From a virus (lineage: Duplodnaviria; Caudoviricetes), in the IMG/VR virus record IMGVR_UViG_3300030372_001217, positions 1-34,768 of that record: a DNA stretch of 34,768 nt. One strand, written 5' to 3'. This document shows positions 2,751-32,439 of the stretch, one piece after another. The position numbers and the translations under genes were made by a program. The stretch's first letter is position 1, and each line of letters starts with the position of its first letter. The notes below the pieces were generated by a model. It was not told the origin of the DNA. It did not search any database and saw only the letters and a list, made by a program, of their open reading frames with translations.

Positions 2751-2812
2751 CGTCCGTTCATCCTTCGGGACGCATGCAATCAGATCATGGAACGGGGGTC
2801 TGATACTGAGGT
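2751..2812 (+). ncRNA. Glutamine-II (Downstream-peptide) riboswitch
   Basis: P1 CCGTTC(2754-59)/GAACGG(2790-95); TCC-TTCG-GGA hairpin (2761-70); pseudoknot ATCAGATC(2779-86)/GGTCTGAT(2797-2804) next to a GAGG RBS; followed by a YRG-motif peptide. Confidence 0.8.
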
Positions 2813-3092: not shown

Positions 3093-4262
3093 ATGGCACA
3101 ACAGTCAACAAATAACCCAGCTTCACAAACCTTTCTGGGTAGAATAAATACAGCGACAAACGCTACAAACAACAGAGACCTTTATTTAAAGCTGTTCTCA
3201 GGTGAGATGTTTACTGGATTCCAGAGGGAAACTATCGCACGTGACTTAGTCATGAAGCGTACGTTAACCAACGGGAAGAGTTTGCAGTTCATCTATACTG
3301 GTCGCACAAGTGCGGAATACCACACACCTGGAAACAGTATATTAGGAAACTCTGACAAAACTCCTCCAGTAGCAGAAAAAACAATTACAGTCGATGACCT
3401 ATTAATCAGCTCGGCTTTTGTTTATGAGCTAGATGAGACACTAGCACACTATGAATTGAGAGGAGAGATCTCTAAGAAGATCGGCTATGCACTTGCACAA
3501 AAGTACGATAGACTAATCTTCAGAGCTATTGCTAAAGGTGCTAGACAGGCATCTCCAGTATCACTAACCAACTTCGTTGAGCCAGGTGGTACACAAATCA
3601 GAGTTGGTGCGGGTTCTAACGCAGACGATGCTCTTGATTCAGCTAAATTAGTTACAGCTTTCTATGATGCTGCAGCTGCTTTAGATGAAAAAGGGGTGAG
3701 TGATGACGGAAGAGTAGCCGTATTAAACCCTAGGCAATATTATTCCCTCATACAAGAGGCAGGCTCTAACGGTTTAATTAACAGAGATGTACAAGGTACA
3801 GCTTTACAGAGTGGAAACGGTGTAATTGAAATTGCAGGTATCAGAATCTTCAAGTCAATGAACGCTCCATTCTTCTCTAAGTATGGTACAAAGTATGCAC
3901 CTGCTAGTGGTGCTTCAGCTGCTACTGACCTTGATACAGTAGATCCTGGAAATACAGGTTCATTTGTATCTGAGGCAATTGAAACAGCTACAACAGTTAC
4001 AGGCAACAACTACGGAGCTCGTCAGAACTACGGTGCTGCTTCTAACTTTGCAAACACATGCGGATTAATATTCCAGCGTGAGGCTGCAGGTGTAGTTGAA
4101 ACTATTGGCCCACAGGTTCAAGTAACTTCTGGGGACGTTTCTGTAGTTTACCAAGGCGATGTCATCCTAGGAAGACTAGCTATGGGAGCAGACTATGTAA
4201 ACCCAGCAGCTTGTGTAGAATTGTTCGCTGGAACAACTACAAAGCCAGCTGCTTTCTCATAA
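3093..4262 (+). CDS. Major capsid protein (T7 gp10-like)
   Basis: LYLKLFSGEMFTGF, RTLTNGKSLQF, ITVDDLLIS, GYALAQKYDR motifs; gene order. Confidence 0.97.
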   Translation: MAQQSTNNPASQTFLGRINTATNATNNRDLYLKLFSGEMFTGFQRETIARDLVMKRTLTNGKSLQFIYTGRTSAEYHTPGNSILGNSDKTPPVAEKTITVDDLLISSAFVYELDETLAHYELRGEISKKIGYALAQKYDRLIFRAIAKGARQASPVSLTNFVEPGGTQIRVGAGSNADDALDSAKLVTAFYDAAAALDEKGVSDDGRVAVLNPRQYYSLIQEAGSNGLINRDVQGTALQSGNGVIEIAGIRIFKSMNAPFFSKYGTKYAPASGASAATDLDTVDPGNTGSFVSEAIETATTVTGNNYGARQNYGAASNFANTCGLIFQREAAGVVETIGPQVQVTSGDVSVVYQGDVILGRLAMGADYVNPAACVELFAGTTTKPAAFS

Positions 4263-26901: not shown

Positions 26902-27227
26902 TACCAGTACTTCCAACTTATAAAGATTACAATTACAACTTAATAGTCATGACATCAACAGATGCTAAAAAACTCTGGAGAAAAGCTATTAAGGAGGCAA
27001 ACAACTATGAATGTATTTATTGTGGAGAAAGACATCATGAATTTGATCTTACCATTGACCATGTACGCCCCAGATGTAATGGGGGTGGTCATATGTCTAA
27101 CAACTGCGTTCCAGCGTGTCAAAGATGTAATCAATCGAAAGGAAGTAATAATTGGTTGACGTGGTTTCGTACTACGTTTCCACCTAACCCTTTTAGGGAA
27201 CAACTAATAACAAATTGGATTAAATGA
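26898..27227 (+). CDS. HNH endonuclease
   Basis: CIYCG...LTIDHVRPRCNGG...NCVPACQRCNQSKG. Confidence 0.9.
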   Translation: MIPVLPTYKDYNYNLIVMTSTDAKKLWRKAIKEANNYECIYCGERHHEFDLTIDHVRPRCNGGGHMSNNCVPACQRCNQSKGSNNWLTWFRTTFPPNPFREQLITNWIK

Positions 27228-28954
27228 GTTTAGAAAAAGAGTTACATAAAGACTTTAGAATATTTCTAACAGCTGTATGGACTCACTTAAATTTACCAAT
27301 ACCAACCAGAGCACAGTTATGTATCGCTGAGTATTTACAACAAGGCCCAAAACGATTACAGATACAAGCGTTTCGTGGTGTAGGTAAATCTTGGATCACC
27401 GCTGCATTTGTGCTGTGGACTTTATTTAACGATCCAAACAAAAAAATTATGGTGGTGTCTGCATCTAAAGACAGAGCAGACTCCTTTTCTATATTTTGTC
27501 AAAGGTTAATTATGGAGGTGCCTTGGTTATCACACCTAAAACCTAAAAACGATGACCAAAGATGGTCACGTATATCGTTTGATGTGGGGCCAGCAGCTCC
27601 GCACCAAGCACCCTCAGTAAAGTCTGTGGGTATTACAGGACAGCTAACAGGATCTAGAGCTGACCTTATGGTATTAGACGATGTCGAAGTACCTAATAAC
27701 AGTATGACGGAGCTACAACGTGAAAAACTCTTACAACTTGTTACTGAGTGTGAGTCTATTCTTACTCCTAAACGTGACTCTCGTATTATGTTTCTTGGAA
27801 CTCCTCAAACGACTTTCACTGTTTACAATAAATTAAGAGAACGTAGTTATAGACCTTTTGTGTGGCCTGCTAGGTATCCTCGCAAGGTAGCCATGTATGA
27901 TGGTTTACTTGCACCTCAACTAGCAGAGGATTTAGAAAACAAAAACGATCTTACGTGGGAACCTACAGATACACGTTTTAAAGAAGCTGATCTACTAGAA
28001 AGAGAAGCATCTATGGGTAGATCAAACTTTATGTTGCAGTTTATGCTAGATACTAGCTTATCTGACGCAGAAAAGTTCCCATTAAAGTTTGCAGATCTTA
28101 TAGTAAATCCAGTAAATCCTACACATGCACCAGAAAACATAATATGGTGCTCAGACCCAGACAATGTTATTAAAGATTTACCTTGTGTGGGGCTCCCAGG
28201 GGATTATTACTACAAACCTATGCAGATACAAGGTAAGTGGCAAGAATATAGCGAAACTATTTGCAGTGTTGACCCATCTGGGCGTGGAGCTGACGAAACA
28301 GTAGCTTGTTTTTTATCACAACTAAACGGTATCATGTATTTGCATGAAATATACGCATCACAAGACGGTTATAGTGATGACACATTATTAGCAATACTTA
28401 AAAGATGCAGAAAATATGATGCGAGTACACTGCTCATCGAGAGCAACTTTGGCGATGGTATTGTATCAGAGCTATTTAAAAAACACTGTCAAACGACAAA
28501 AACAAACATAAATATAGAGGAAACAAGAGCAAATGTTCGCAAAGAAGACAGAATCATTGATAGTCTTGAGCCTGTGTTTAATCAGCATAGGTTGGTGGTT
28601 GACCCCAAAGTTATTGCATGGGATTATGAATCGAATACTGAGAGGGCAGCTGAAAATAGATACCAATATATGCTTGCCTACCAAATCTCAAGAATGTGCA
28701 GGGAAAAAGGTGCCGTTCGACATGACGACAGAATTGATGCCCTTGCCCAAGGAGTCAAATATTACACCGATGCCCTTGCCCTTTCAGCTGAACAGCAAAT
28801 AAAAGACAGAAGACATGAGGAATGGTTAGATCATCTAGAAGCATGGATGGATGACCCAGAGTGTGAAGCAAATCATATTGCACTAGGAATGTCCTTAGAC
28901 CAAAAAAGAGAGGCTAGAGGGGCTACTAGAAGCCACTCACACTCATGGATGTAG
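27224..28954 (+). CDS. terL: Terminase large subunit (T7 gp19-like)
   Basis: Walker A AFRGVGKS, Walker B MVLDDVE, GTPQ, nuclease DPSGRG and HDDRIDAL. Confidence 0.97.
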   Translation: MSLEKELHKDFRIFLTAVWTHLNLPIPTRAQLCIAEYLQQGPKRLQIQAFRGVGKSWITAAFVLWTLFNDPNKKIMVVSASKDRADSFSIFCQRLIMEVPWLSHLKPKNDDQRWSRISFDVGPAAPHQAPSVKSVGITGQLTGSRADLMVLDDVEVPNNSMTELQREKLLQLVTECESILTPKRDSRIMFLGTPQTTFTVYNKLRERSYRPFVWPARYPRKVAMYDGLLAPQLAEDLENKNDLTWEPTDTRFKEADLLEREASMGRSNFMLQFMLDTSLSDAEKFPLKFADLIVNPVNPTHAPENIIWCSDPDNVIKDLPCVGLPGDYYYKPMQIQGKWQEYSETICSVDPSGRGADETVACFLSQLNGIMYLHEIYASQDGYSDDTLLAILKRCRKYDASTLLIESNFGDGIVSELFKKHCQTTKTNINIEETRANVRKEDRIIDSLEPVFNQHRLVVDPKVIAWDYESNTERAAENRYQYMLAYQISRMCREKGAVRHDDRIDALAQGVKYYTDALALSAEQQIKDRRHEEWLDHLEAWMDDPECEANHIALGMSLDQKREARGATRSHSHSWM

Positions 28955-29067
28955 TCAACCCCACCATAACACACGGGGAAGTGGTGCTCCTCGTGGGTGG
29001 AAACAGCGGTCAGAGGGGTAGCTAGTCTATCCCTCACTCTACATCGTGGTAAGGTTCACGATATATT

Positions 29068-29196
29068 ATGAAAAAATTACTCTTACTCTTACTAATACTT
29101 AGGGTAGCTGCTCCTATATCGTATATAACGTGGGTAGCTCTCAGGGATCAAAAAATTTGGCATAATTTTCCAAAGGCAATATACAGAGAGCGATAG
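29068..29196 (+). CDS. Possible 42-aa hydrophobic peptide (MKKLLLLLLILRVAAP...)
   Basis: Translated by hand; signal/TM-like; last ORF before the non-coding region; weak RBS. Confidence 0.35.
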   Translation: MKKLLLLLLILRVAAPISYITWVALRDQKIWHNFPKAIYRER

Positions 29197-29420
29197 CTGG
29201 CAGCCCCCCAAGCGGTTGGCTTGTGTTCGGTTTTCCGTACTTGCCACAATCGTGAGACAGTCCCCACAAGATTGTTTCAATATGTAACGAAGCACCACAG
29301 CGGGGATGGCGTACCAATACTTGAGTCTTATGAGACCAACACCATATATAGCAATGTTACAGAACCTTGCGAGGTCTTGACATAATCTCATGTGAGACTC
29401 ATGGGATCTGTATTTGTTCA
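29150..29420. repeat. Probable genome-end / terminal-repeat junction region with short TGAGAC-type repeats
   Basis: Non-coding gap between terL (last T7-order gene) and early genes; TGAGAC at 29253, 29331, 29393 and TGAGTC at 29322. Boundaries cannot be fixed from one copy. Confidence 0.5.
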
Positions 29421-29518
29421 GTGTGGATAATTATATATAAGGATGACTAATGTAAATAGTAATTTATACTTATATAAATTTACATATTACAAGTATGTTA
29501 AGTAATTATAAAGTTTTA

Positions 29519-29547
29519 TTGACCTTTCCTGATTTTCATGGTATCCT
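29519..29547 (+). promoter_or_regulatory. Host sigma70-type early promoter P1
   Basis: TTGACC-17nt-TATCCT with extended -10 TG and a very AT-rich upstream region. Confidence 0.6.
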
Positions 29548-29574
29548 CTCACATTTTAAAATTTATAGCTAGAG

Positions 29575-29590
29575 TAGTACACATGTACTA
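29575..29590. promoter_or_regulatory. Cyanobacterial LexA-type operator
   Basis: TAGTACA-CA-TGTACTA perfect inverted repeat; fits RGTAC-NNND-GTWCB. Confidence 0.65.
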
Positions 29591-29596
29591 TCCACC

Positions 29597-29624
29597 ATCA
29601 TAGGCTTGCGCCTCACTTTGTCAA
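29597..29624 (-). promoter_or_regulatory. Leftward sigma70-type promoter
   Basis: Minus strand TTGACA-16nt-TATGAT; predicted +1 near 29590. Confidence 0.55.
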
Positions 29625-29670
29625 GTATTTTCTAAAATGTGTTGGTTTGCTGACTTTACCAGGTGTCACG

Positions 29671-29698
29671 TTGAAAAGCCTAAAAACCATGCTAATAT
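29671..29698 (+). promoter_or_regulatory. Host sigma70-type early promoter P2
   Basis: TTGAAA-16nt-TAATAT with extended -10 TG. Confidence 0.55.
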
Positions 29699-29782
29699 AT
29701 ATACATGAAACAAATTTTTTATTCTATGACTTTCATTTATTCCTTATTATAAAAAGAGACCACAACAAATACAACAAGTTAC

Positions 29783-30212
29783 GGGGGCTTATCCTTAGAA
29801 GATAAGTACAGCATCACTAAACTATATGCGTTACCTGTTAATGTGAACCGAACCATAGCACCGAATCAAGTAGGATAAGACTAGAGGCGAGACAGCATCA
29901 ATACGGGGACTGTAATGAAGTAAGCGGTAGGGCTTACGTGAACGGTGGGGAGCGCAAACCGACAGCTCTGGGCTAGATAGCACTAAAGGCTAGCAATTAA
30001 CAGTTAACACAAGGACTTGTAGTGCCTACCCACAATCATCACGTCCACAAATGTTAACAATCACACGCAATCATTAATTACCGCTGTAGGCTGTACTATG
30101 TCAGCCAACTGACCTTACAAGTGGGAACACTTCGTAATGTGTAATACTTGCCCACAGCTTTCATGCGGTGCTATAGTTAGATCTAGCTGGTGCAACTCCA
30201 GCTCACCGCTCA
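29783..30212 (+). ncRNA. Candidate large structured RNA / early leader, class unassigned
   Basis: No credible ORF; many complementary segments, including long-range helices and pseudoknot-type pairings (see findings). Confidence 0.55.
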
Positions 30213-30219
30213 CAAAACT

Positions 30220-30843
30220 ATGACTTATTCCCAACTATCACACAATGCACGTGAGATCGTAGCCAAGTTCACGCTTGCTACATCCCAAGAAGTGCAGCTA
30301 GGTTGTGACTGGTATCCGTCAGCTCTCAAGATCTCCGCTCGCATTGGCGAGAAGTACGGTGTATCCGCTGAGGTTGTTGCGGGTGTCATCGCAGCTCTCT
30401 CACCTAACAACCGCTGGGAGCGTAACATCATTGACGCTGAAGCCATCATTAAATGCTGGCGATCTGGCGGTACTCGCACTGACATGACCAATGTCAAGGT
30501 GTGTACTTATGGCAAGATGAAACAGAAAGCCATTGACATACTACTCACACGTGTGCCCATCGTTGACATACTCAAAGGCAAAAAGCTTGTTGAGTTCTTC
30601 AACTGCATCACTAACCCAGCTCTCAATGACGTATGTATTGACGGACATGCGTACTCTGTATGGTTCGGTCAACGCCTTACCATGAAAGAAGTTCCAGCCA
30701 TTGGCATCCGTTTGCGATCACAAATCAAGACTGATTATCGTGACGCTACATGCTTCATCAATGAGGAGCTAGGCGAGCACTACACGCCAGCATCAATCCA
30801 AGCCATCACATGGGTTACCCACAAACGTATCTATGACGTATAA
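30220..30843 (+). CDS. Conserved early phage protein (DUF7178-like; possible HhH-GPD glycosylase-like fold)
   Basis: WY...AALSP..RW..N...K..EFF.CI......VCIDGHA...QAITW pattern; start placed at ATG 30220. Confidence 0.65.
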   Translation: MTYSQLSHNAREIVAKFTLATSQEVQLGCDWYPSALKISARIGEKYGVSAEVVAGVIAALSPNNRWERNIIDAEAIIKCWRSGGTRTDMTNVKVCTYGKMKQKAIDILLTRVPIVDILKGKKLVEFFNCITNPALNDVCIDGHAYSVWFGQRLTMKEVPAIGIRLRSQIKTDYRDATCFINEELGEHYTPASIQAITWVTHKRIYDV

Positions 30844-31033
30844 CCAGCTCACACTCATGCCATACCTTGACGGTGCGGTTATGATGTACAAAGGATGTAC
30901 TAATGATCCAGCGGTTATGCTGGCACTCACATCCATACATGACAGACATTATCAGTTCGATTCACATGACACCACACGATTCTACTTCAACACCGAAACA
31001 GGATTATCCACGACGCAAACGCCCTACGCTTAA
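30833..31033 (+). CDS. Hypothetical early protein, 66 aa
   Basis: ORF track; overlaps the previous stop by a few codons. Confidence 0.5.
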   Translation: MTYNQLTLMPYLDGAVMMYKGCTNDPAVMLALTSIHDRHYQFDSHDTTRFYFNTETGLSTTQTPYA

Positions 31034-31139: not shown

Positions 31140-31240
31140 CTATTATTCCATGTACTAACGGTGTTGGCGAATGGGAGATTGCAGAAACCCATGAAACCTT
31201 TGACACCTACGAAGAGGCTCTAGCAGCATGCGAGTCTTAG
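31136..31240 (+). CDS. Small acidic hypothetical protein, 34 aa (MTIIPCTNGVGEWEIAETHETFDTYEEALAACES)
   Basis: Translated by hand; overlaps its neighbours at both ends. Confidence 0.5.
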   Translation: MTIIPCTNGVGEWEIAETHETFDTYEEALAACES

Positions 31241-32118
31241 ACCTATTCAGTGGCATAGGTGGCTTTGCCTACGCAGGTCATCTCCTGGGAGGCTTTACTA
31301 CGACTCAGTTTGTAGAGAACAACACCTATTGCCAGCAGGTTCTACGCAAGAACTTTCCACTTGTACCTATTCACGATGACATCAACACCTTTGACACATC
31401 ATTCAGATTCGGTGAGTACGACCTCATCACAGCTGGCTTCCCATGCCAAGACTTATCCTCAGCAGGCAAGCAGGCTGGACTTCGAGAAGGCACACGCAGC
31501 AGCTTGTTCTACAGGGTCATGCAGATTGCTAGGCGTGTTCGACCTAAATTCATCCTCTTTGAAAACGTTGCAAATACAATCAGTCACGCCAAAGGGCAAA
31601 CTTTCCAAGCTATTCTCCATGAAATTGCCAAAAGCGGGTTCAATGCTGAGTGGGGCATTGTATCAGCTGCAGACGTGGGAGCATGTCACCTCCGCAAACG
31701 CATCTGGATTATTGCCTACGCCAACGACTCAAGATACTATCGCACATCCAAATGCCAAGCTGACTCCGAACGGACGGAGACTGTCATCAAATGGTACGAG
31801 TCACTCCCTCAACATACAAGACAAGTTGACGCTATTACCGACACCCAGAGCCAGCGAGTGGAAGGGCATAGGAGTCAAAGGCAGCCCCAGCAGCTTACGT
31901 TGGGCAAAACAAGGTTACTTAACTGGAGTGATACAGGAATCAGACTCAGTTCCGACTGGCGTACCTACGCATCTCAACCCATGCTTCGTAGAGGAGATGA
32001 TGGGTTATCCCGTAGGGTGGACAGACTTAAATGCCTAGGCAATACCATATGTCCGCAAACCGCAACAATTCCACTCAATCGTATCAAACAACTTGACGCT
32101 CTCCTCCAGCATAGCTAA
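31228..32118 (+). CDS. DNA (cytosine-5) methyltransferase, catalytic (alpha) chain
   Basis: Motif I LFSGIGG, IV GFPCQ, VI FENV, VIII HLRKRIW, X LGNTI; no convincing motif IX in this frame. Confidence 0.92.
   Translation: MRVLDLFSGIGGFAYAGHLLGGFTTTQFVENNTYCQQVLRKNFPLVPIHDDINTFDTSFRFGEYDLITAGFPCQDLSSAGKQAGLREGTRSSLFYRVMQIARRVRPKFILFENVANTISHAKGQTFQAILHEIAKSGFNAEWGIVSAADVGACHLRKRIWIIAYANDSRYYRTSKCQADSERTETVIKWYESLPQHTRQVDAITDTQSQRVEGHRSQRQPQQLTLGKTRLLNWSDTGIRLSSDWRTYASQPMLRRGDDGLSRRVDRLKCLGNTICPQTATIPLNRIKQLDALLQHS
31619..32038 (+). CDS. Putative methyltransferase beta chain (TRD plus motif IX) nested in the +1 frame; start uncertain, frame open from 31361
   Basis: Repeated LLPTP units and HLNPCFVEEMMGYPVGWT, a motif-IX-like sequence. 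Confidence 0.7.
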   Translation: MKLPKAGSMLSGALYQLQTWEHVTSANASGLLPTPTTQDTIAHPNAKLTPNGRRLSSNGTSHSLNIQDKLTLLPTPRASEWKGIGVKGSPSSLRWAKQGYLTGVIQESDSVPTGVPTHLNPCFVEEMMGYPVGWTDLNA

Positions 32119-32157: not shown

Positions 32158-32439
32158 ATGATCGTAATGCAACCACAAACACGCACCTCTACTGTTGTTG
32201 ACAAGATTGATGTCAACCCCTTAACAGGTTACGCCAAGGTAGAGCTATTATCTGGTGCAGTCTATGAGTACCACAATGTATCTCGCAGAGCATGTGCCAA
32301 CTTACTAGCACAACCTAACATGTCACTAGGTTTCTGGTTCAACAAGAACTGCAAAGCCAATGGTGTTACATGCAAACAACTTAAAGATGTCAACCTATCT
32401 ACCAAATGGTCAGAGTTCAAAAAAACATACGCTAAATAA
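32158..32439 (+). CDS. Early protein, KTSC-like pattern
   Basis: GAVYEYHNVS...MSLGFWFN resembles KTSC domains. Confidence 0.6.
   Translation: MIVMQPQTRTSTVVDKIDVNPLTGYAKVELLSGAVYEYHNVSRRACANLLAQPNMSLGFWFNKNCKANGVTCKQLKDVNLSTKWSEFKKTYAK

What the first reader, a model, noticed from the sequence alone, without database searches (positions are those of the whole stretch)
29783..30212. Candidate ~430-nt structured ncRNA with long-range helices, a kissing loop and a pseudoknot
Seen pairings: CTTATCCT(29788-95)/AGGATAAG(29872-79); CTGTTAAT(29835-42)/ATTAACAG(29996-30003); ATAGCACCG(29855-63)/CGGTGCTAT(30166-74). The hairpin GTAAGC-GGTAGG-GCTTAC (29920-37) has a loop complementary to CCTACC (30025-30), itself in the loop of the nested GTTAACA/TGTTAAC, GGAC/GTCC, TTGT/ACAA arm. 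Also an H-type knot CGGT/ACCG with GAGC/GCTC (29943-68), GCTAG/CTAGC, and a GCTGT/ACAGC domain holding GGCTG/CAGCC and CAAGT/ACTTG. No ORF; it would be the first region transcribed. I cannot match it to tmRNA, RNase P or an intron. Inference: an undescribed RNA (decoy, antitermination element, ribozyme or anti-defence RNA). Not all helices can coexist and the shortest may be chance.
Basis: partly seen in the sequence, partly recalled or inferred. Interest (0 to 1): 0.8.

Follow-up and report, generated by a model that had tools for sequence, protein, structure and literature searches.

The report
Modular phage RNA with tRNA mimic
Ocean viruses that likely infect the cyanobacterium Prochlorococcus carry, ahead of their early genes, a conserved folded RNA that matches no catalogued RNA family, made of three swappable parts and ending in a tRNA look-alike that the host's tRNA-cutting enzyme likely clips to free a stable RNA, possibly a decoy for host proteins.

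Summary
The RNA is real, but it is a chain of three modules rather than one fold. It lies in a T7-like cyanopodovirus between a sigma-70-type promoter and the DUF7178 early gene. M1 (29783-~30068) holds a hairpin with an anticodon-like loop, a kissing loop and an H-type knot; M2 (30083-30158) is a junction with a CCAA loop; M3 (30165-30210) is a tRNA-like acceptor stem plus T arm. In 16 distinct homologs a revised 74-pair model is 99.7% paired, 29 pairs with double changes. Across 50 distinct cassettes the modules occur in different combinations, and every M3 keeps tRNA's 12-nt T-loop-to-end ruler. Contigs from 7 of 7 marine RNA runs laid cover M1; two studies give an end at 29783. Folding z-score is +0.12. 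No Rfam, cultured-phage or cellular-genome match. Best reading: host RNase P cuts at M3 and releases a stable early phage ncRNA (inferred); a trans decoy role is a guess.

The parts
29671..29698 (+). sigma-70-type promoter (TTGAAA-16-TAATAT, TG before -10); predicted start near 29705
   Evidence: class-C relatives have a >=9/12 promoter ending 21-47 nt upstream in 18 of 18, perfect in 12 of 18; class-A matches within 140 nt are weaker or missing
29705..29782 (+). A/U/C-rich leader, inferred to be trimmed off
   Evidence: sequence; RNA contigs begin at 29783 in X1 and X5, one X11 contig runs into the leader of a relative
29783..30068 (+). M1 (class A): main structured RNA; 3' border approximate
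   Evidence: covered by contigs in 7 of 7 RNA runs laid
29788..29806 (+). P1 hairpin with 7-nt loop CTTAGAA (anticodon-loop-like; CTTATAA and CTTGTAA in relatives)
   Evidence: 4 of 6 pairs with double changes; loop counts 18/8/1 of 27
29808..29831 (+). P2 with bulged A; shared with class C
   Evidence: 100% paired, 1 double-change pair
29834..29907 (+). long irregular P3 arm closed by CC/GG
   Evidence: RNAalifold; several of its double changes are single events on the tree, so its register is less certain
29910..29945 (+). hairpin 29920-37 flanked by a purine-rich asymmetric loop that fits the kink-turn consensus (3-nt bulge, G.A, A.G)
   Evidence: same pattern in 16 of 16, A.A in place of A.G in 1; consensus recalled; its closing stem competes with the knot stem
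29926..30030 (+). kissing pair GGTAGG (29926-31) with CCTACC (30025-30)
   Evidence: two changes of pair state on the tree
29943..29969 (+). H-type pseudoknot, also present in class-B cassettes
29972..30058 (+). hairpin 29972-94 and arm 30003-58 that carries the kissing partner
30083..30158 (+). M2: closed junction with a G-CCAA-C hairpin and a GGAA-tetraloop hairpin
   Evidence: z -2.15; a second M2 type in relatives
30165..30210 (+). M3: tRNA-like structure (6-bp acceptor 30165-70/30204-09, T arm 30185-30203, U discriminator, no encoded CCA); predicted RNase P cut between 30164 and 30165
   Evidence: z -2.80; not called by ARAGORN
30220..30843 (+). downstream early gene, DUF7178 / phrog_3842, no Shine-Dalgarno

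Best explanation
This is a conserved, three-module non-coding RNA cassette at the front of a cyanopodovirus early region, likely transcribed by the host polymerase and likely cut by host RNase P at its tRNA-like end to release a stable RNA that possibly serves as a decoy for a host tRNA- or RNA-handling protein. Steps: (1) the modules, their helices and their swapping are shown by comparison; (2) RNA from M1 with an end at 29783 is seen in marine RNA contigs, with strand and level not shown; (3) transcription from the promoter at 29671-98 is inferred; (4) RNase P cleavage before G30165 and a 3' cut after U30210 are inferred from the 12-nt ruler, G1-C72 and U(-1); the cut would leave M2's long closing stem as a protected 3' end and give the DUF7178 mRNA a new short 5' end; (5) trimming of the leader to G29783 and a possible cut in the AU-rich M1/M2 linker are inferred; (6) action in trans as a decoy is a guess from the anticodon-like loop, the tRNA mimic and the free exchange of M1 types. 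Rough odds: functional structured RNA 0.95; RNase P punctuation 0.7; trans decoy 0.35.
For: Covariation: 74 pairs, 99.7% of 1184 cells paired, 29 pairs with double changes versus 0-3 in slid controls; 47 and 12 minimum changes of pair state on M1 and M2 trees; many G-U one-sided changes, a GNRA loop and a T-loop on + point to RNA of the + strand. M1 identity 75-86% against 55-59% in the upstream spacer for the 3 relatives compared. M3 in 25 long forms: 98.5% paired, 9 of 19 pairs double-changed. T stem + gap + acceptor = 12 nt in 50 of 50 cassettes; in a free search 35 of 46 best helices use that register, all 35 with U before G+1. RNase P measures 12 bp from the T-loop, cleaves acceptor/T-arm hairpins and processes phage C4 and M3 RNAs and mRNAs (PMC11143913, passages). 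Similar acceptor/T-arm elements lie before early genes of P-SSP10, 9515-10a, P-SSP7 and L045. RNA contigs: X1 piece 29783-29945 with 0 differences; X5 has library adapter directly before 29783; nothing at 29122-29676 in 4 of 4 runs. M1 types A, B and C are scattered over the tree of the downstream gene and combine with different M2 and M3 types. No terminator-like site inside the cassette.
Against: No cleavage was observed: no run gave an end at 30164/65, and an X11 contig of 427 nt runs from M1 through M2 into M3. Contigs show neither strand nor level; X7 and X11 also cover upstream DNA at low depth, so DNA or precursor is present. MFE z is +0.12. The structure was chosen on the same alignment it was scored on, and the 16 sequences are related (85% mean identity). 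11 of 46 free searches preferred another helix. The acceptor stem is 5-6 bp in most forms, CCA is not encoded in most, the discriminator varies (A or U). No binding partner or defence system was identified; 15 close relatives lack the cassette altogether, so it is dispensable.
Confidence: 0.5

Rival explanations
1. A cis-acting leader of the early operon: it modifies the elongating host polymerase (put/EAR-like antitermination), shields the mRNA from RNase E/J, or recruits ribosomes in place of a Shine-Dalgarno sequence.
For: Always directly upstream of the same gene; 29 of 29 cassette loci lack GGAGG/AGGAG before it, 15 of 16 cassette-less loci have it. RNase E is induced in P-SSP7 infection (PMC9692554, abstract and introduction).
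Against: The 15 SD loci form one clade, so this is a single event. A cut at M3 would detach M1 and M2 from the mRNA. Unrelated M1 types fill the same slot. Near-identical RNA pieces fall on M1, not the gene, in X1, X5, X6 (weak, contigs do not rank genes).
Confidence: 0.25
2. M1 is a small-molecule aptamer, acting as a riboswitch or as a sponge for a metabolite or signalling nucleotide.
For: Invariant junction nucleotides, a kink-turn-like loop leading to a kissing helix, and an H-type knot recall lysine/SAM-I/c-di-GMP-II riboswitch builds (recalled). The same genome carries a glutamine-II riboswitch.
Against: No Rfam hit at E<=10; no terminator or SD-sequestering platform; classes A, B and C share only pieces.
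Confidence: 0.1
3. An RNA-only oligomer (ROOL/GOLLD- or pRNA-like) in which the kissing loop is intermolecular.
For: ROOL and GOLLD are phage-encoded, tRNA-adjacent, and form cages through kissing loops that covariation had read as tertiary contacts (PMC12286853, passages).
Against: M1 is about 285 nt against 581 nt on average for ROOL (PMC5737381); only one kissing pair found; classes B and C lack it.
Confidence: 0.08
4. A ribozyme or selfish RNA element whose own chemistry makes the 29783 end.
For: Sharp end at 29783 in two studies; compact conserved core shared by classes A and C.
Against: No match to any Rfam ribozyme or intron; the base at the equivalent position varies in class C; not inserted in a gene.
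Confidence: 0.05
5. Chance pairings, or a DNA-level signal near the genome end.
For: MFE z +0.12; lies near the post-terminase region.
Against: Covariation with G-U pairs, GNRA and T-loops on one strand, RNA contigs.
Confidence: 0.02

Closest known systems
ROOL and GOLLD RNAs
   Same: Phage-encoded, multi-helix RNAs with kissing loops/pseudoknots, unknown function, often next to tRNAs (PMC12286853, PMC5737381, passages).
   Different: No covariance-model match; half the size or less; cyanopodovirus-restricted; neighbour is a tRNA mimic, not a tRNA; modules swap.
Phage P1/P7 C4 antisense RNA (RNase P-matured phage RNA)
   Same: Phage RNA precursor predicted to use host RNase P (C4 as substrate: PMC11143913).
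   Different: No Rfam C4 match; no antisense target better than chance in its own genome (best E 0.72, 0.99, 0.24 in three genomes); here the mimic follows larger structured modules.
MALAT1/NEAT1 with mascRNA/menRNA
   Same: Logic: a structured 3' domain followed by a tRNA-like element whose cleavage makes the upstream RNA's 3' end (recalled; abstract in listing).
   Different: Eukaryotic; triple helix rather than a CCAA junction; no homology claimed.
tmRNA tRNA-like domain
   Same: Long M3 forms have acceptor stem, stemless D-like strand, a helix enclosing an insert of about 95 nt, and T arm.
   Different: Pair 3-70 is G-C (or A-U, with G-U in a few), not an invariant G3.U70; no ARAGORN or Rfam call; window's form is only 46 nt.
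Lysine / SAM-I riboswitch P2 arm
   Same: Kink-turn-like loop directing a hairpin loop into a long-range helix (architecture recalled).
   Different: No Rfam match, no expression platform; the motif's closing stem competes with the knot.

Membership tests
Any Rfam 15 family | Covariance-model score at the gathering threshold | tested here: not met
   0 hits at E<=10 on 28900-30400; 0 at gathering on 17 loci; only chance-level minus-strand hits for classes B and C
ROOL / GOLLD | Length about 580 or over 800 nt with six-junction or larger architecture | tested here: not met
   M1 about 285 nt, M1+M2 381 nt; sizes
ROOL / GOLLD | Phage-encoded, beside tRNA genes | tested here: inconclusive
   Phage yes; no tRNA gene in the window or in loci L001-L046, only the mimic
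ROOL / GOLLD | Homo-oligomeric cage | not testable with these tools
   needs biophysics
tRNA | Cloverleaf with D arm and anticodon arm inside the acceptor stem | tested here: not met
   ARAGORN 0; 14-nt connector only
tmRNA | G3.U70 alanylation pair | tested here: not met
   window G-C; 25 long forms G-C 22, A-U 2, G-U 1; the two L009/L011 short forms have G-U
tmRNA | Tag reading frame; ARAGORN/Rfam detection, permuted forms included | tested here: not met
RNase P substrate (works-like) | 12 nt/bp from T-loop to the paired 5' end | tested here: met
   50 of 50 with 5' start fixed by motif; 35 of 46 in a free search
RNase P substrate (works-like) | 7-nt T-loop on a 4-6-bp stem, G+1-C+72, pyrimidine at -1 | tested here: met
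   T stem only 3 bp in one subgroup (L023 type)
RNase P substrate (works-like) | 3' RCCA | tested here: not met
   A-CCA follows in 7 of 50 rows only; window has U-CA-C
RNase P substrate (works-like) | Actual cleavage | not testable with these tools
   contigs gave no end at the site
C4/CI-type antisense RNA | Complement to a target in the phage genome | tested here: not met
   (ungapped-seed search; short split targets could be missed; host genome not searched)
Kink-turn | Canonical stem, 3-nt bulge, tandem G.A / A.G | tested here: inconclusive
   pattern in 16 of 16 but the canonical stem is invariant and competes with the knot stem and with CTGT/ACAG
Riboswitch | Expression platform (terminator or SD sequestration) | tested here: not met
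RNase P RNA / group I or II intron | Catalytic-core consensus detected by family models; intron inserted in a gene | tested here: not met
   intergenic position

The most novel reading that the evidence does not exclude
A phage ncRNA expression cassette with an exchangeable payload: host promoter, variable structured RNA (at least three types), a constant CCAA-loop 3' domain and a tRNA-mimic release signal, whose payloads are RNA decoys (anticodon-loop and tRNA-elbow mimics) that neutralise tRNA-targeting or RNA-sensing defences, or divert host tRNA-processing/rescue factors, in the first minutes of infection: an RNA counterpart of T7's early Ocr DNA mimic.
Probability: 0.2. Interest if true: 0.92.

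Novelty: new variant of a known kind. Interest (0 to 1): 0.72.

Why it matters
Large ornate bacterial and phage RNAs are rare and often turn out to have unusual biochemistry. This family comes with covariation, a mapped-looking 5' end in ocean RNA, natural deletions (close relatives without it) and natural domain swaps, so its function is directly testable. It also points to a general, apparently undescribed use of tRNA mimics as processing marks in cyanopodovirus early regions, testable at once in cultured P-SSP7 and P-SSP10.

Tried and rejected
Rfam and ARAGORN (6, 17): no family. blastn of classes A, B and C against 50,697 phage records: nothing beyond two E 0.6 scraps. Two motif scans of GTDB genomes: 0 hits and 4 unrelated-taxon hits not followed up. 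The 17-mer T arm alone gave 81 viral hits, of which 2 are this cassette; the rest were not characterised. A model of the long M3 (R1) found 1 match in 40 sources, a further cassette, and neither the window's short M3 nor cultured phages. Antisense target in own genome: none. Phage-polymerase promoter at 29783: the upstream 13-mer occurs once in the window. SD loss as independent evidence: one clade only. A loop-to-junction 'anticodon-codon' pairing rests on 1 of 27 sequences (L231) and two further scans found no new example: left as a lead. Resemblances to RNase P S-domain T-loops, SAM-I, FMN and c-di-AMP riboswitches were recalled from memory and have no tool support. rows 11-13 and all were mis-registered by me and are not used; one search replaces 90. 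Lack of RNA contigs over M2/M3 in most runs is not taken as evidence. Earlier findings of this scan: nothing. Literature: ten searches showed no description of this RNA; in PMC10690425 four supplement files gave no motif or contig hit but two zip files and three large files could not be searched and may hold parts of it; subscription papers (for example early marine metatranscriptome sRNA surveys, recalled) are outside the library.

Full report
Setting. The window is a T7-like cyanopodovirus fragment: scaffold, psbA, capsid, tail genes and terminase (27224-28954) followed by about 1.2 kb without a called gene and then small early-type genes. The closest cultured terminases are those of Prochlorococcus phages P-SSP10, P-SCSP-R27W, P-SSP6 and 9515-10a at 83%; 4 of 4 near-complete relatives tested encode a T7-type RNA polymerase. 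The host is therefore inferred, not shown. The finding lies between a sigma-70-type promoter (29671-29698) and the DUF7178/phrog_3842 gene at 30220. That it is the first region transcribed is plausible from gene order; the physical genome end was not located.

The observation. The named helices exist. Folding energy is ordinary (z +0.12) while long perfect helices are in excess (27 against 17.0 +/- 3.9; 0 of 60 shuffles). Homologs came from a scan with the downstream protein (46 loci) and motif scans of viral and metagenome contigs. Sixteen distinct full-length homologs of the window's type (class A) were aligned (truncated copies L131, L158, L172, L173, L189, L214, L221 and three unrelated hits were left out). 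A revised 74-pair model is 99.7% paired with 29 double-change pairs, against 0-3 in slid controls. It was chosen on the same data, and relatedness inflates cell counts; on trees the double-change pairs need at least 47 (M1) and 12 (M2) changes of state, though several P3-arm pairs are single events.

Anatomy. M1 (29783-~30068): P1 hairpin with a 7-nt C-U-U-R-K-A-A loop; P2; a long P3 arm; a purine-rich loop that fits the kink-turn consensus and leads to the kissing hairpin; an H-type knot; two further arms. An AU-rich linker follows. M2 (30083-30158) is a closed junction whose G-CCAA-C hairpin is found in every cassette by construction of the search and folds as such, with a closing stem, in 40 of 41 distinct sequences. 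M3 (30165-30210) is an acceptor stem plus T arm.

Modularity. Relatives hold other RNAs in the M1 slot: class C (18 distinct) shares P1, P2 and the P3 closure with A; class B shares the H-type knot, with parallel stem-2 changes. There are two M2 types and short (44-49 nt) and long (127-133 nt) M3 forms; 50 distinct cassettes combine them in several ways, and M1 types are scattered on the tree of the downstream protein (45 rows, L044 and L046 left out as partial). Of those 45, 29 carry the cassette and lack a Shine-Dalgarno, 15 lack it and have GGAGG (one clade), and L045 has neither. Scans for class-C, class-A and M2 motifs returned only this lineage apart from one chance hit; no cultured phage or cellular genome gave a match.

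The tRNA mimic. In 25 long forms 19 pairs are 98.5% paired, 9 with double changes, in acceptor, T and inner stems. The distance from T-loop to acceptor end is 12 nt in 50 of 50 when the 5' start is fixed by motif; a free search gives the same register in 35 of 46, always with U before G+1, and another helix in 11. Bacterial RNase P measures this distance, cuts acceptor/T-arm hairpins and processes phage and messenger RNAs (PMC11143913, passages). CCA is mostly not encoded and the discriminator varies, which fits a processing mark better than a charged tRNA. Like elements stand before early genes in cultured phages: 6 of 7 acceptor pairs in P-SSP10, 6 and 7 of 7 in 9515-10a, a 5-of-7 minihelix directly before gene 1 of P-SSP7, 7 of 7 twice in L045 and once elsewhere in G002; 6 of 7 alone is within chance for that search, and these have a purine at -1.

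Transcription. Twelve runs (11 on record as RNA, 6 studies) share a small part of 29600-30900. Seven were laid; all have contig pieces on M1. X1's only piece is 29783-29945 with no difference; in X5 library adapter stands directly before 29783; 29122-29676 is empty in 4 of 4. On relative L219, X6, X7 and X3 cover mainly M1, X3 continues past it, and X11 has one contig crossing the 5' end into the leader and one running M1-M2-M3, with low cover upstream. Contigs show no strand or level, so this is a strong hint of a discrete RNA, not proof, and no cut at M3 was seen.

Mechanism. Best reading: host-polymerase transcript, punctuated by RNase P at M3, leaving a stable RNA with a paired 3' end and a short-leader mRNA; the released RNA acts in trans, most likely as a decoy for a host tRNA- or RNA-handling protein. 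The first half rests on anatomy (about 0.7), the second is a guess (about 0.35). A cis leader (antitermination, protection from the RNase E that rises in P-SSP7 infection, PMC9692554; or SD-free initiation) is the main rival; aptamer, oligomer and ribozyme follow.

Comparison and novelty. It works like tRNA-punctuated ncRNAs (C4, MALAT1/mascRNA) and sits in the company of ROOL and GOLLD (PMC12286853 and PMC5737381, passages), but it fails membership of each family tested. No Rfam family matches. Ten literature searches found no description; PMC10690425 was read as passages and four of its supplements searched, five could not be; other papers were seen as listings only. Verdict: a real, apparently undescribed modular phage ncRNA family; function open; interest 0.72.

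Noticed in passing
window 31228-32118 and 31361-32038 (+): Two DNA methyltransferase-like ORFs (phrog_363, E 9e-67; phrog_1008, E 4e-17) overlap in different frames, like alpha/beta C5-methyltransferases encoded in alternative frames (comparison recalled).
   Followed up: no
window 2752-2804 (+): Glutamine-II riboswitch between psbA and the capsid gene; also in P-SSP7 and G002.
   Followed up: partly
L283:1016-1045; L168 near 3363; L169:2810-2856 and 3452-3529; L280:10038-10087; L045:770-810 and 1288-1326: Intergenic acceptor/T-arm elements followed by a short ATT-linked hairpin in cultured and uncultured cyanopodoviruses; no Rfam match in P-SSP7 or L280.
   Followed up: partly
L003:2845-2984 and 24 other long M3 forms (alignment A3): A highly conserved, mostly unpaired insert of about 95 nt inside the tRNA mimic, with a pyrimidine-rich tract; tmRNA-like layout, no target found in the phage genome.
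   Followed up: partly
L009/L011/L191, L017/L020/L035/L039/L040, L021, L041/L184, between M3 (or the promoter) and the DUF7178 start: At least four further small structured-looking RNA modules in the same slot.
   Followed up: no
L024, L025, L041 M1 slot: Extended class-B RNAs with different 5' domains.
   Followed up: no
window 28956-29038: A 60-80-nt block right after the terminase stop is 90-98% identical in most relatives, cassette or not; possible terminal-repeat or packaging signal.
   Followed up: no
window 32158-32439 (+): Early ORF with a weak KTSC-domain match (E 1e-4, below cut-off), a putative RNA-binding fold (recalled).
   Followed up: no
L231 P1 loop and P2/P3 junction: Loop CTTGTAA goes with a changed junction, hinting at a 2-3-bp loop-junction pairing; single example of 27.
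   Followed up: partly
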